Of a DNA stretch of 64,000 bases, positions 41,177 to 62,935 are shown in pieces; position 1 is the stretch's first letter, and each line of letters begins with the position of its first letter. This DNA is from Bacteroidota bacterium (GTDB lineage Bacteria; Bacteroidota; Bacteroidia; AKYH767-A; 2013-40CM-41-45). The DNA lies in assembly GCA_031427625.1 (NCBI GenBank), contig JANPNV010000002.1:36370-100369 (forward strand), given 5' to 3'. The notes beneath the pieces were generated by a model. It ran no database searches. It saw only the letters and a list, made by a program, of their open reading frames with translations, and was not told the DNA's origin. A program made the translations under genes and the position numbers.

Positions 41177-41195
41177 TAATTCTTTTGTAAAAAAA

Positions 41196-41224
41196 GCCGT
41201 CCCTACAGGGTCGGCTTTTTTTTT
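41196..41224 (+). terminator. rho-independent terminator
   Basis: An A7 tract precedes the GC-rich hairpin gccgtccct-ac-agggtcggc, which is followed by a T9 tract. Confidence 0.8.
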
Positions 41225-41289
41225 GCTCTTTTTTCAGATGCATATGAAATAACCAAGAAGTTTTAATTATGACATCCTCAAATTAAAGA

Positions 41290-41742
41290 CTAATCAATTC
41301 CCCGCTGCATCTCTCTGGCAACATCTTTCTTCTTTATATCCTCACGTTTGTCGAACATCTTTTTTCCACGGGCTACTGCAATTTCAAGCTTTGCAAGTCC
41401 TCTTTCATTAAAAAATATCTGTATCGGTATAATAGTCGTTCCCTTATCCTTCAGCTTCGAGATAATTTTTAAAATCTCTGACTTTTTCAGAAGTAACTTT
41501 CGGGTTCTTTTGGGTTCATGGTTGGCATAAGAACCGTGCGTGTATTCTGAAATATGCATATTCTTTACCCACAACTCATCATTTGTAATAAGACAGTATG
41601 AATCCGTCAGATTTGCTTTCCCTTCACGAATCGATTTTATCTCCGTACCAGTAAGCATTATACCCGCCTTGTAAGTTGCCAGAAAGTGATATTCGAACGA
41701 GGCCTTCTTATTCTTTATAACAGACTGATGCTGTTTTCCCAT
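41290..41742 (-). CDS. smpB: SsrA-binding protein
   Basis: At 150 aa it shows SmpB-typical sequence (FEYHFLATYKAGIMLTGTEIKSIR...KLLLKKSEI). Confidence 0.9.
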   Translation of the reverse strand: MGKQHQSVIKNKKASFEYHFLATYKAGIMLTGTEIKSIREGKANLTDSYCLITNDELWVKNMHISEYTHGSYANHEPKRTRKLLLKKSEILKIISKLKDKGTTIIPIQIFFNERGLAKLEIAVARGKKMFDKREDIKKKDVAREMQRGID

Positions 41743-55063: not shown

Positions 55064-57310
55064 TTAATTTTTAATAATTGTTCTTTGTGTTAATTTTCCT
55101 TTTTCATTTACATAAACTATCATGTAAATCCCTGACTCATAATTACTGAGATCGAGGTTAAAATTTCTTGTTTGAATTTCTATATTTTTTTCGAGGAGTA
55201 ATTTCCCATCTGCACTTATCAGTTTTAAATTTCCTGTTGAATTCGTAGGAATTCGAATCTGAACGTTATTTACAGTCGGGTTTGGAAAAACAGAAAGATC
55301 TTTCATGTATTTATCTTCTTCAATTCCTGTTGTAGAAAAATATATCGTATTCGACTGACTGCTGCACTGATCCGAATTCATTACTGCTACTTTGTATTCC
55401 CCTTCCAGAAATGCCATAAATGTTTGGCCATTTTCTGAAGGAATAGAGGCGTTGTTATAATACCATTGATATTGAAAATTCTGAGTCGATGATAATTCAT
55501 TTCCACTAAGAGTGATTAAGGGAATTGCAGGATTAGCTTTCACAGTGACGAAATTTAATTTCATCAAAGTCTGATTACCAAAACTATTAATTGCAGTCAG
55601 CGTAACACTGTAGACTCCAGGTTGTGAATATGAAATCTGAGGATTTTTTAAAGTTGATACCGCCGGATTACCTCCCTGAAAATTCCATATCCATGAAGTT
55701 GCATTCGGTGTTGCATCTAAAAATGCAACCTGGCTATTTGCACATATTACTGTTGATTGTGCAGAAAAATTTACTTGCGGAAGATTGCAATTTGTGGATG
55801 AAATACTTTCTGAATATGTATCTGTATTGTAACACGTACTTGCAGTTAATGTAACAGTACGGATAGTATTTAAAGGAAATAGAAGTTGAATACTTTGATT
55901 CCTTGATAGGAAAGTATTATTTAAAGTCCAGCTGATCTCGGAAGCATCTGCTGAAGAATTGACAAGGTTTAATGTGTCACCTCCACAAACTGAAGAGGGA
56001 CTGCTGAAATATGCTATTGGGTTTTTGCATACAAGGCTTAGCAACCAGATATCAGACGAGCCATGTTGACCAGAAACATCATTGTTATTACTAAATGTAT
56101 ATCCTGCGATAAGGAATCCTCCAGTTGCATCTTGAAAAACACTAACAGGTCGATCACTTCCTGAACCACCGTAATTCCTGCTCCATTCTGTATTAAATGA
56201 ATTATCGGTCTTTAACAACCAGATGTCTTCCATTCCAGAAAAGTTCAAAATATCTCTGTCCGTAGAGGTCGATCCTGAAGTCAGTAAATATCCTCCATCT
56301 ATCGTTTCGATTATAGAAAACAAATTCTCAGCTCCGCTACCTCCAAAATTTTTCTCCGATTGCAAATTCCCAAAGCAATCGATTCTTATTAACCAACTAT
56401 CCGTGTAACCATAATTAGTGCTGACTTCTCCATTCGATGAACGGGAATATCCACCTATTAAAATATTCTGTCGTGAGTCGATAAGTATAGTTTGTGCTGA
56501 TTCAAAATTGGAACCTCCGAAAGCTTTAGTCCATAAATTACTTCCGTTAAAATCATATTTGGCAACCAGCATATCGTAATTACCATGATTAAACATCACA
56601 TCTCCATCTACTGAGTTTGATGTTCCCCCTGCATATATATTTCCAGAAGCATCTGTAGTAACTGAATAAAACACGTCAATGTTTGTTCCACCGGTAGAGT
56701 TCTGCCATAATAAATTTCCGAGACTGTCAACCTTCATTATCCATGCATCCTGATTTCCATGATTTCCGCTTACATCACCATCCAGCGAATAGGATCCACC
56801 GACAAGAATAAATCCGCCATCACTTGTTTTCTTATGAGCATAGCAGAGATCCACTTGAGAACCTCCGTAATTTTTTAAACTCAAGACGTTTCCGTTATTA
56901 TCAGTACACATCCAAAACACATCGAAGTTTCCTTTATTGTTTTGAAAGTCGCCGTCTGTTGAAGCTGTATATCCTGTTATAATGAGTCGACCATCAGCTA
57001 ATTCGCTGATTGAAGTTCCTGCATCAATAGAACTTCCTCCAATTGATTTTTGCCATAACAATGAGCCCGACGATGTTAATTTCGTAATCCAGATATCCGT
57101 AGAACCATGGTTGAATAAAATATCACCGTTTTGGGAGTCTACATTAGAAAGAAGAATAACGTTTCCATCATTCGATTGAATTAATGCGGCCGGAACATCT
57201 TGCTGACTGCCACCAAGGCATTTCTGCCAATTTTTCAATGGAGGTGATGCTGCCCAACCGGAAAGAACAATCTGCATTAAAACAAAGAAGAGAGATCCTT
57301 TTTTCATCAT
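55064..57310 (-). CDS. secreted repeat protein with a PKD-like domain and a type-A T9SS C-terminal sorting domain
   Basis: After a signal peptide there are about seven 45-aa repeats with the motif G..D.W..K.d..G...W.k..GGS (DIWITKLTSSGSLLWQKSIGGS, DAWIMKVDSLGNLLWQNSTGGT and others). The C-terminus (LSVFPNPTVNNVQIRI...GIYMIVYVNEKGKLTQRTIIKN) fits a Por secretion tail. Confidence 0.8.
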   Translation of the reverse strand: MMKKGSLFFVLMQIVLSGWAASPPLKNWQKCLGGSQQDVPAALIQSNDGNVILLSNVDSQNGDILFNHGSTDIWITKLTSSGSLLWQKSIGGSSIDAGTSISELADGRLIITGYTASTDGDFQNNKGNFDVFWMCTDNNGNVLSLKNYGGSQVDLCYAHKKTSDGGFILVGGSYSLDGDVSGNHGNQDAWIMKVDSLGNLLWQNSTGGTNIDVFYSVTTDASGNIYAGGTSNSVDGDVMFNHGNYDMLVAKYDFNGSNLWTKAFGGSNFESAQTILIDSRQNILIGGYSRSSNGEVSTNYGYTDSWLIRIDCFGNLQSEKNFGGSGAENLFSIIETIDGGYLLTSGSTSTDRDILNFSGMEDIWLLKTDNSFNTEWSRNYGGSGSDRPVSVFQDATGGFLIAGYTFSNNNDVSGQHGSSDIWLLSLVCKNPIAYFSSPSSVCGGDTLNLVNSSADASEISWTLNNTFLSRNQSIQLLFPLNTIRTVTLTASTCYNTDTYSESISSTNCNLPQVNFSAQSTVICANSQVAFLDATPNATSWIWNFQGGNPAVSTLKNPQISYSQPGVYSVTLTAINSFGNQTLMKLNFVTVKANPAIPLITLSGNELSSTQNFQYQWYYNNASIPSENGQTFMAFLEGEYKVAVMNSDQCSSQSNTIYFSTTGIEEDKYMKDLSVFPNPTVNNVQIRIPTNSTGNLKLISADGKLLLEKNIEIQTRNFNLDLSNYESGIYMIVYVNEKGKLTQRTIIKN

Positions 57311-57587
57311 ATAGCTTCCTGTGACGGAATACTACAAAGTGCATCAGAATGGCCCTGGAGTTCAATATTTTTATGTAAACCATTGTCTTCAATGGGTTAA
57401 TAGAAGTTATATAAAGTGAGAATTTAGATGTTTTTCAAAGCAAAACGCTCATTCTCCAAGAATTTTAACGATTTTGAATAGAAAGTTTACAAATGAGATT
57501 CAAATGGCCTTATCAGGGCATCAACAATGGAAAAGGGGCGTTAAACAAGACAAGAAAAACAATTTTCAACTGACCGACAATTTTCAG

Positions 57588-57664
57588 CAATCCCGTAAGA
57601 TTGATTAATCCAGTTCAACCCCGTAAGGTTGGCAAAAAATGACCCAGCCCCGTAAGGCTGGGTT
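57588..57664. repeat. three tandem stem-loops about 28 nt apart that share an identical 6-nt loop CCGTAA but have different, fully complementary stems; a candidate structured RNA
   Basis: The units are caatc-ccgtaa-gattg (57588-57603), caacc-ccgtaa-ggttg (57616-57631) and cccagcc-ccgtaa-ggctggg (57643-57662). Confidence 0.5.
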
Positions 57665-57671
57665 TATTTTT
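57641..57671. terminator. bidirectional rho-independent terminator formed by the third stem-loop
   Basis: The 7-9 bp GC stem is followed by tttatttttt on the plus strand and by tcattttttgcc on the minus strand, where it lies just 3' of the gene at 57664-58212. Confidence 0.7.
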
Positions 57672-58212
57672 TATGCGCTTTTATAACTGTGACACTACTT
57701 CTTTTATGCATGAGCAGATAAAAACTTCCAAATAATAATGTATTGTAGAAAAGATCGCCGGCGATCTGATTTCTGAAGAATGGAAGAGCCATACTATAAC
57801 TTTCAAGTGTTCCAGCGACTGTCATCGGATAAAGCCTCAAATCCATATACCATAGAGGTAAATTAGTCACTAGGAAAAAAACGATTGATGATAACAACGA
57901 CATACATCCGATGTTAAATACGGTCTGATTTCTGGTGATTAATACACCCATCCATACAGTAAAAACAAAACAGGCATAAACAGGGAGAATACTAAAATGA
58001 AATCCGATAAAAAGATCGCTTATAAACATGGCTGCCATTGGCAATAAGAAAGCAATTCGTTTATCTCTGAAAGCGACTCCCGAAAAAAGTGCCATTGCAC
58101 CAATAGCTGTAAAATTAAAAGGATGATAGGGGATAAATCTTGTTACCGCAGCAATAATTATTAGAAGGAATGCGATAAGGAAGGATTGTATATTTTCTTT
58201 AGATTTTATCAT
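57664..58212 (-). CDS. hypothetical small integral membrane protein (about 5 TM)
   Basis: Hydrophobic helices are present throughout and no diagnostic motif was recognised. Confidence 0.45.
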   Translation of the reverse strand: MIKSKENIQSFLIAFLLIIIAAVTRFIPYHPFNFTAIGAMALFSGVAFRDKRIAFLLPMAAMFISDLFIGFHFSILPVYACFVFTVWMGVLITRNQTVFNIGCMSLLSSIVFFLVTNLPLWYMDLRLYPMTVAGTLESYSMALPFFRNQIAGDLFYNTLLFGSFYLLMHKRSSVTVIKAHKK

Positions 58213-62903: not shown

Positions 62904-62935
62904 AATATTATTGCATTGTGGAATGCAATAATATT
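62904..62935. promoter_or_regulatory. perfect 14-bp inverted repeat with a 4-bp spacer (AATATTATTGCATT gtgg AATGCAATAATATT), 32-63 nt upstream of the dockerin-protein start codon
   Basis: The reverse complement of 62904-62917 equals 62922-62935 exactly. It lies in the AT-rich divergent intergenic region between 62872 and the bshC start. Confidence 0.5.

What the first reader, a model, noticed from the sequence alone, without database searches (positions are those of the whole stretch)
57588..57671. Three tandem hairpins with an invariant CCGUAA loop and different but complementary stems, the last one acting as a bidirectional terminator
Hairpin units start at 57588, 57616 and 57643, about 28 nt apart. 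Their loops are identical (ccgtaa) and each ends directly in g, but the stems are caatc/gattg, caacc/ggttg and cccagcc/ggctggg. This is the pattern expected when selection preserves an RNA structure with a loop that is read by a protein or RNA partner, as in sponge sRNAs that present repeated loop motifs, or for a set of protein-recognition hairpins. CRISPR repeats and REP-type elements would instead keep the stem sequence. The array sits in a 350-bp gene-free gap 3' of a small membrane-protein gene and 5' of a T9SS-secreted repeat protein. The third hairpin is followed by U-runs on both strands. It could therefore be the 3' end of a plus-strand sRNA whose body lies in 57311-57587, or a structured 3' UTR of the minus-strand gene. 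I cannot place it in any RNA family I know.
Basis: seen in the sequence. Interest (0 to 1): 0.7.

Follow-up and report, generated by a model that had tools for sequence, protein, structure and literature searches.

The report
Conserved triple-hairpin terminator module, CCGUAA cap
Three short hairpins that share one cap sequence, the last a two-way transcription stop signal, sit beside a vitamin-B12-uptake-linked membrane gene and are conserved in about 40 uncultured Bacteroidota genomes; they are a local, tripled case of an apparently undescribed but widespread "CCGUAA-capped" terminator hairpin that phages also place after their capsid genes.

Summary
Three perfect hairpins at 57588-57603, 57616-57631 and 57642-57663 share the cap C-CCGTAA-G. 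No simulated window gave even two such hairpins together. The module is unique in the 64-kb window and has no Rfam match. It is conserved directly 3' of DUF6580 genes in about 40 Bacteroidota loci whose DUF6580 proteins are only 48-70% identical, with many two-sided stem changes. It is therefore selected structure, not a dispersed repeat. Both flanking genes are on the minus strand. Hairpin 3 has conserved A- and U-tracts, so it is a bidirectional terminator. There they nearly always follow a gene on the CCGTAA strand, carry the U-tract on that strand, and sometimes stand as a weak-then-strong tandem after major-capsid genes. My best reading (about 0.45) is that the triad is the 3' termination and stability module of a small plus-strand non-coding transcript that starts near conserved boxes at 57485-57545. 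Hairpin 3 would also terminate DUF6580. The main rival is a minus-strand 3'-UTR or intercistronic role. The sponge-sRNA idea is untested and has become less likely.

The parts
57588..57603 (+). Hairpin 1, caatc-CCGTAA-gattg. It is a weak 5-bp stem with no U-tract on either strand.
   Evidence: It is conserved in nearly all family loci. The loop differs in a few loci (TTATGA, TTTTAG).
57616..57631 (+). Hairpin 2, caacc-CCGTAA-ggttg. The stem is 6-7 bp (tcaacc/ggttga) in most relatives.
   Evidence: The exact 16-mer occurs in more than 120 viral contig stretches.
57642..57663 (+). Hairpin 3, acccagcc-CCGTAA-ggctgggt. It is a strong GC-rich stem and acts as a bidirectional intrinsic terminator.
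   Evidence: scores it as a terminator on both strands. Searches show 5-7 of its pairs with two-sided changes. One search shows the conserved A- and U-tracts. One search finds its core 16-mer in more than 120 viral stretches.
57664..57675 (+). U-tract of hairpin 3 on the + strand (TTATTTTTTATG). It overlaps the stop codon and the last Lys codons of DUF6580.
   Evidence: The matching A-tract on the gene strand has 8-11 A in 12 nt in all 30 loci.
57632..57642 (-). U-tract of hairpin 3 on the minus strand (TCATTTTTTGC). It gives termination of DUF6580.
   Evidence: It has 6-11 T in 12 nt and is weaker and more variable than the + strand tract.
57485..57545 (.). Three conserved boxes with fixed spacing. 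On the gene strand they read T(T/A)AACGCC (57537-57545), then 13-14 nt, then (A/T)GAT (within 57519-57530), then about 22 nt, then YnCAnnTGTAA(G/A) (57485-57497). They are a candidate promoter or operator of the + strand RNA, but their orientation is unresolved.
   Evidence: The boxes are kept in loci that have lost the downstream T9SS gene. They are duplicated together with the hairpins in L038 and L041.
57664..58212 (-). DUF6580 gene (182 aa). It is the constant neighbour of the module.
   Evidence: Relatives place it in an operon of cobalamin riboswitch, TonB receptor and DUF6580.

Best explanation
The three hairpins form a tandem, weak-weak-strong set of 'CCGUAA-capped' terminator hairpins that acts on the window's + strand. 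A short non-coding transcript starts in or just after the conserved box region (about 57,485-57,550) and runs through hairpins 1 and 2. It ends at hairpin 3 plus UUAUUUUUU (about 57,668-57,675), giving an RNA of roughly 120-190 nt. Because hairpin 3 is flanked by an A-tract and a U-tract, it also terminates the convergent DUF6580 gene on the minus strand.

The shared cap is not specific to this locus. It marks a widespread class of intrinsic-terminator or 3'-stabiliser hairpins that phages also use, singly or as a weak-then-strong pair, after highly expressed genes.

Four points are shown: the hairpins, their covariation and conservation, the bidirectional terminator anatomy, and the class and its orientation in viral contigs. 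Two points are inferred: that a + strand transcript exists with its start at the boxes, and that hairpins 1 and 2 add 3'-end protection or termination efficiency. What the RNA body does remains unknown.
For: The hairpins are real and non-random.

The family is conserved. Of 35 Bacteroidota DUF6580 loci, 28 carry the same triad directly after the stop codon, although the proteins are only 48-63% identical. Further loci from metagenomes add to this. The covariance model scores 78-124 bits only at these sites and finds nothing in the 45 loci L046-L090, nearly all non-Bacteroidota.

Covariation is clear. In the MAFFT alignment, 10 of 24 pairs show two-sided changes. In the model-fitted alignment, 14 of 21 pairs do, with 93.8% of cells paired. 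No shuffle out of 500 reached these values.

The + strand U-tract is at least as conserved as the minus-strand one (mean 9.6 versus 8.3 of 12, minimum 8 versus 6). This holds even where it overlaps coding sequence.

The class has a preferred orientation. For hairpin 2's 16-mer in viral contigs, 58 of 92 distinct instances follow a CCGTAA-strand gene and 1 follows a TTACGG-strand gene. An A-tract (U-tract on the CCGTAA strand) is present in 67 and a T-tract in 18. For hairpin 3's core, the counts are 62 versus 7 for gene orientation and 47 versus 11 for the tracts.

The same architecture occurs in three phage lineages: major head protein gene, then a weak capped hairpin, then a strong capped hairpin, then a U-tract, with covarying stems.

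Hairpins 1 and 2 have no U-tract on either strand. They lie upstream of the terminator only on the + strand.

The fixed-spacing boxes persist without the downstream gene and duplicate with the hairpins as one unit, as expected for a self-contained gene.
Against: There is no transcript evidence. No canonical Bacteroidota -7 box (TAnnTTTG) lies at a conserved position on either strand. Box 3 resembles the -7 region of the T9SS gene's own promoter on the gene strand, so the boxes might be a minus-strand promoter.

On the gene strand the loops read U(UACG)G, a UNCG-type tetraloop, and each hairpin is about 1.1 kcal/mol more stable there.

In relative L032 the same slot holds a 20-copy hairpin repeat with no terminator next to DUF6580, which fits gene-strand transcription.

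Some bacterial arrays with this cap carry U-tracts on the TTACGG strand (L200, and the tripled hairpin 3 of L038). Wobble-pair counts show no strand bias: G.U against A.C is 11 versus 13 in the family and 12 versus 12 elsewhere. The tight linkage to DUF6580 is not explained by an independent sRNA.
Confidence: 0.45

Rival explanations
1. Gene-strand (minus) element. Hairpin 3 is the terminator of the DUF6580 (B12-uptake-linked) transcript. Hairpins 2 and 1 are made on read-through and act as an intercistronic decay barrier, insulator or partial terminator between DUF6580 and the downstream T9SS beta-propeller/PKD gene. This would resemble REP/BIME or T4 CUUCGG hairpins. The loops would fold as U.G-closed UACG tetraloops.
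For: The module sits 0-80 nt after the DUF6580 stop codon in every locus. Hairpin 3 is a predicted terminator on this strand. The loop is UNCG-like on this strand and the hairpins are more stable there. L032 has a 20-copy hairpin array in the same slot with no terminator before it, and the same neighbours: riboswitch, TonB receptor, DUF6580 and a T9SS PKD gene. Several metagenome arrays follow a gene on the TTACGG strand, and L200 has U-tracts on that strand.
Against: Hairpins 1 and 2 lie after the terminator and lack U-tracts, so they would rarely be transcribed. The capped hairpin's orientation in viral contigs is overwhelmingly the opposite one (58 versus 1 and 62 versus 7). The minus-strand U-tract is the weaker and more variable of the two. 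This reading does not explain the fixed-spacing boxes kept without a downstream gene.
Confidence: 0.27
2. The three identical loops are docking sites for a dedicated RNA-binding protein or for a complementary RNA, and the RNA titrates that partner, as CsrB/RsmZ or EutX/Rli55 do.
For: The 8-nt cap, including the closing C-G pair, is invariant while the stems covary. Copy number varies between loci and lineages: 3-5 in the family, and 5-13 in other arrays such as L117, L209, L190 and L200. Hairpins 1 and 2 are too weak and lack the U-tract needed to be terminators.
Against: The same cap tops single, ordinary terminators after many phage genes, so it is a generic feature. No candidate partner gene co-occurs in the loci examined. 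The loop does not match the CsrA (GGA) or ANTAR (A1, G4) rules. A 5-7-nt complementarity between box 3 (UUGUAAG) and the loop showed no compensatory change where loops differ.
Confidence: 0.12
3. DNA-level element. The inverted repeats extrude as hairpins in single-stranded DNA or as cruciforms, and a recombinase or transposase (REP/RAYT, IS200/IS605, attC-like) or another DNA-binding protein recognises them.
For: The stems are almost purely Watson-Crick, with no strand bias in wobble-compatible mismatches.
Against: There is one cluster per locus rather than hundreds per genome. No transposase or RAYT gene lies nearby. The strong link to A/U-tracts and gene 3' ends in viral contigs points to transcription termination.
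Confidence: 0.05

Closest known systems
Bidirectional and tandem Rho-independent (intrinsic) terminators
   Same: Hairpin 3 has a GC-rich 8-10-bp stem and a short loop. It has an A-tract 5' and a U-tract 3', so it can stop transcription from both directions. It sits at a gene's 3' end.
   Different: Hairpins 1 and 2 have no U-tract. All three share an invariant 8-nt cap. The whole triad is conserved in sequence far beyond what a terminator needs.
Phage T4 'CUUCGG' extra-stable hairpins in intercistronic regions (Tuerk et al. 1988; from my own knowledge)
   Same: A fixed cap sequence sits on hairpins with otherwise free stems. These hairpins recur at gene ends and intercistronic sites in phage genomes.
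   Different: It is not a UNCG tetraloop closed by C-G, and its physical basis is unknown.
REP/BIME intercistronic stabiliser elements of enterobacteria
   Same: They are palindromic units in tandem just after genes, and they can protect upstream mRNA.
   Different: REPs keep the stem sequence and occur hundreds of times per genome. This module is single-copy per locus, and only its cap is shared with other sites.
CsrB/RsmZ-type sponge sRNAs and ANTAR dual-hexaloop substrates (EutX/Rli55)
   Same: They are short hairpins in tandem that display a repeated loop motif, with variable stems and a variable copy number.
   Different: There is no GGA motif and no A1/G4 hexaloop rule. No partner is known, and the cap is also found on ordinary single terminators.

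Membership tests
Intrinsic (Rho-independent) terminator | GC-rich stem of >=5 bp with a 3-8-nt loop, followed at once by a U-rich tract | tested here: met
   Hairpin 3 meets it on both strands, and the tracts are conserved in 30 loci. Hairpins 1 and 2 do not meet it, because they have no U-tract.
Intrinsic (Rho-independent) terminator | RNA 3' ends map to the U-tract | not testable with these tools
   No transcript data were available.
CCGUAA-capped terminator hairpins (class delineated here from viral contigs) | Cap C-CCGUAA-G on a perfect stem, with the U-tract on the CCGUAA strand | tested here: met
   Window + strand: acccagcc-CCGTAA-ggctgggt followed by TTATTTTTT. For the class, the A-tract on the TTACGG side is present in 67 of 92 and 47 of 95 instances.
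CCGUAA-capped terminator hairpins (class delineated here from viral contigs) | A protein-coding gene on the CCGUAA strand ends just upstream | tested here: not met
   No conserved + strand ORF lies upstream. The 44-aa ORF at 57474-57608 spans boxes whose spacing varies by 1 nt. The upstream transcript would therefore be non-coding.
REP/BIME or other dispersed palindromic repeat | Many copies per genome sharing the stem sequence | tested here: not met
   There is one cluster in the 64-kb window. About 600 kb of related loci hold one other TTACGG hairpin. The covariance model hits only the DUF6580 site.
CRISPR array | Identical direct repeats separated by unique spacers of similar length | tested here: not met
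   The units differ in their stems, and only 17 nt are shared at 82-88% identity. No cas genes are present.
CsrB/RsmZ-type sponge sRNA | Repeated GGA-containing loops and a CsrA/RsmE partner | tested here: not met
   The loops are CCGUAA or UUACGG. Bacteroides are reported to lack CsrA and Hfq (abstract of PMC13370968).
ANTAR-binding dual hexaloop motif | Two hexaloops with A at position 1 and G at position 4, the second hairpin overlapping a terminator (rule recalled from Ramesh et al. 2012) | tested here: not met
   Hexaloops are present, but positions 1 and 4 are C and U on the + strand or U and C on the minus strand. Hairpin 2 does not overlap hairpin 3.
Any Rfam 15 family | Covariance-model match at or near the gathering score | tested here: not met
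   Only chance-level hits at E about 1-5. There were no gathering-level hits in the window.
UNCG tetraloop hairpin (C(UNCG)G) | UNCG loop closed by a C-G pair on the transcribed strand | tested here: inconclusive
   The minus strand reads C-U(UACG)G-G, so the loop is closed by U.G and not by C-G. Viral contigs indicate that the opposite strand is usually the transcribed one.

The most novel reading that the evidence does not exclude
The invariant cap C-CCGUAA-G (UUACGG on the other strand) may be a recognition element for a dedicated factor, not merely a stable loop. That factor could be a termination protein, a 3'-end-binding protein or a nuclease-blocking protein in Bacteroidota, which their phages exploit after capsid genes. 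Arrays of 3 to 13 or more such hairpins would then be multivalent platforms for it. On this reading the DUF6580-linked triad couples a small RNA, or the B12-uptake transcript, to that factor.
Probability: 0.2. Interest if true: 0.8.

Novelty: new variant of a known kind. Interest (0 to 1): 0.55.

Why it matters
If this holds, it defines two things that are absent from Rfam and that I could not find in the searchable literature. The first is a conserved non-coding module tied to DUF6580, a gene that in relatives sits in an operon of cobalamin riboswitch, TonB receptor and DUF6580. The second is a widespread terminator hairpin class with a fixed hexaloop cap, shared by environmental phages and Bacteroidota-like genomes.

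A fixed cap on terminators hints at sequence-specific help in termination or RNA protection, in a phylum whose RNA biology lacks Hfq and CsrA. It would also improve terminator and sRNA annotation in uncultured lineages, and it offers compact, portable terminator parts.

Tried and rejected
- **Rfam and tRNA searches.** Rfam at permissive and gathering thresholds, and ARAGORN, found nothing.
- **Dispersed repeat.** Rejected. The covariance-model hit at 41178-41295 is an ordinary bidirectional terminator with a CUACAG loop. Other terminators in the window have diverse loops.
- **Same-species contigs.** They are identical here and so uninformative.
- **Small + strand ORF (57474-57608).** Rejected, because the box spacing varies by 1 nt.
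- **Strand assignment by wobble pairs.** No bias was found.
- **Canonical TAnnTTTG promoter scan.** There is no conserved hit on either strand.
- **A minus-strand sRNA starting at the boxes with its own terminator.** Terminator-like hairpins downstream of box 3 are inconsistent.
- **Kissing between box 3 (UUGUAAG) and the loops (CUUACGG).** No compensatory change was seen.
- **My earlier preference for the gene strand.** It rested on the UNCG-like loop, the stability difference and L032. The viral-contig orientation data overturned it.
- **Triple-loop scan of metagenome contigs.** It mostly returned unrelated tandem repeats.
- **Literature searches.** Searches for UUACGG, CCGUAAG and DUF6580 found nothing relevant.

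Full report
**Observation.** The + strand of the window carries three perfect hairpins. They are caatc-CCGTAA-gattg (57588-57603), caacc-CCGTAA-ggttg (57616-57631) and acccagcc-CCGTAA-ggctgggt (57642-57663). CCGTAAG occurs four times in 64 kb, three of them here. None of 300 simulated windows had even two same-loop hairpins within 100 nt. The stems are related, following CA[A/G][T/C]C, and differ by whole base-pair swaps.

Both flanking genes are on the minus strand. DUF6580 (57664-58212, PF20221) has its stop codon abutting hairpin 3. A 748-aa T9SS protein with a beta-propeller-like N-terminal region (weak SBBP-repeat match), a PKD domain and a T9SS sorting tail lies at 55064-57310. Hairpin 3 is terminator-like on both strands. 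There is no Rfam hit and no tRNA. The motif is unique in the window, and the other terminators in the window have unrelated loops.

**Conservation.** Contigs of the same species are identical in this region. Among DUF6580 loci from one genome per GTDB species, 28 of 35 Bacteroidota MAG loci carry the same triad directly after the stop codon. Their DUF6580 proteins are only 48-63% identical. The 45 loci L046-L090, nearly all non-Bacteroidota, have none. More members came from metagenome contigs.

In the MAFFT alignment of 30 loci, 10 of 24 pairs show two-sided changes. In the model-fitted alignment of 43 matches, 14 of 21 do, with 93.8% of cells paired. No shuffle out of 500 reached these values, and slid registers collapse. 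Hairpin 3 covaries most, with stems cccagcc, tccggcc, cccaacc, cctagcc, cctgtc and cctgcc. Hairpins 1 and 2 are nearly fixed in sequence. This is selected structure and not a dispersed repeat.

**Wider architecture.** Conserved boxes with fixed spacing lie 40-70 nt beyond hairpin 1. On the gene strand they read T(T/A)AACGCC, then 13-14 nt, then (A/T)GAT, then about 22 nt, then YnCAnnTGTAAG (window 57485-57545). They persist where the downstream T9SS gene is missing or decayed (L014, L018, L023, L215, L220). They duplicate together with the hairpins in L038 and L041. The T9SS gene has its own conserved promoter-like region nearer its start codon. No canonical TAnnTTTG box is conserved on either strand.

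In many relatives, DUF6580 follows a cobalamin riboswitch and a TonB-dependent receptor. In the window's type of locus, a 383-385-aa protein with no Pfam match precedes it and there is no riboswitch.

**Which strand?** Wobble-compatible mismatches show no bias. The gene strand gives a UNCG-like U(UACG)G loop and about 1.1 kcal/mol extra stability per hairpin. In L032 the same slot holds a 25-nt hairpin repeat in 20 copies, with no terminator next to DUF6580. These points favoured the gene strand.

Other evidence points the other way. The A-tract 5' of hairpin 3, which is the U-tract on the + strand, is at least as conserved as the gene-strand U-tract, even inside coding sequence. Hairpins 1 and 2 lack U-tracts and precede the terminator only on the + strand.

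The deciding evidence came from viral contigs. Among 92 and 95 distinct instances, 58 and 62 lie just after a gene on the CCGTAA strand, against 1 and 7 on the TTACGG strand. The U-tract is on the CCGTAA strand in 67 and 47 instances, against 18 and 11. In three phage lineages a major head protein gene (phrog_138) is followed by a weak capped hairpin, 3-6 nt, then a strong capped hairpin and a U-tract, with covarying stems. That is the window's + strand architecture.

**Interpretation.** The triad is a local, tripled instance of a widespread CCGUAA-capped terminator hairpin. I rate at about 0.45 the reading that it is the 3' module of a small + strand non-coding transcript starting at or after the boxes, with hairpin 3 doubling as the DUF6580 terminator.

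The gene-strand 3'-UTR or intercistronic reading stays plausible at about 0.27. The sponge idea falls to about 0.12, because the cap is generic. A DNA-level role is unlikely, at about 0.05. The existence of the transcript, its start and the function of its body are all inferred and not shown.

**Related arrays.** Metagenome contigs hold arrays of 3-13 hairpins with the same cap and all-different stems in unrelated contexts. The neighbours include genes for a DUF4476 protein, an accD-like carboxyl transferase, panB, an S1-domain (rpsA-like) protein, a SusC-like receptor, ytxH and tamB. Both orientations relative to neighbouring genes occur. The cap-defined class is therefore broader than this locus, and its basis, whether physical stability or factor recognition, remains open. 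I found no description of it in the searchable literature.

Noticed in passing
L032:10503-11000 (relative; same slot 3' of DUF6580): A 25-nt tandem repeat in 20 copies (unit CCTACGGGGTTACAAACAGGTCACC, each a small ACCCC/GGGGT hairpin) replaces the triad. It lies between DUF6580 and a T9SS PKD gene, downstream of a cobalamin riboswitch and a TonB receptor. No A/U-tract terminator is present.
   Followed up: partly
L117:3384-3768, L209:534-944, L190:6057-6294, L200:1903-2075, L137:4293-4388, L092:2020-2089: Arrays of 3-13 hairpins with the same C-TTACGG-G cap but all-different stems occur in unrelated gene contexts (DUF4476, accD-like, panB, rpsA-like, SusC-like, ytxH). L200 also has a box-3-like CATCTGTAAGATTTT about 100 nt after its array.
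   Followed up: partly
L231, L258, L323 (viral contigs): A weak-then-strong tandem of CCGUAA-capped hairpins plus a U-tract starts 12-16 nt after a 535-538-aa major head protein gene (phrog_138). The stems covary between the three phage lineages.
   Followed up: partly
L017, L020, L022, L027, L028, L029, L032, L040, L104 (about 7.4-7.7 kb in most loci): A cobalamin riboswitch (RF00174, 92-114 bits) lies upstream of the DUF6580 gene; where it was checked it directly precedes a TonB-dependent receptor gene followed by DUF6580. This implies that DUF6580 is a B12-uptake component. The riboswitch is absent from the window and from L011, L012, L014 and L025.
   Followed up: partly
window 57360-57379 and about 57330-57345: The T9SS gene has a conserved promoter-like region (TTTACAnAAnAnnATTGAA, then about 21 nt, then CAnnTTG(TAAG)) 30-45 nt before its ATG. 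Its last element resembles box 3 of the module.
   Followed up: partly
window 62904-62935: A perfect 13-bp inverted repeat, AATATTATTGCAT-TGTGGA-ATGCAATAATATT, lies 32 nt upstream of the start of the 1127-aa T9SS-associated gene. It looks like an operator.
   Followed up: no
L017 and L040, about 480-700 nt after the DUF6580 stop: A conserved small ORF encodes a membrane-like peptide (MLISTILFILAYAAGIIYFTQEKK... and MIYTILFILAYASGIILFTQEKK...). It occurs where the T9SS gene is absent.
   Followed up: no
window 57559-57586: A direct repeat, ACAATTTTCA(A/G)C, occurs twice immediately 5' of hairpin 1 on the + strand.
   Followed up: no
window 41190-41220: An ordinary bidirectional terminator lies between convergent genes. 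Its loop, CUACAG, is reminiscent of the cap, and it was picked up weakly by the covariance model (30.8 bits).
   Followed up: yes
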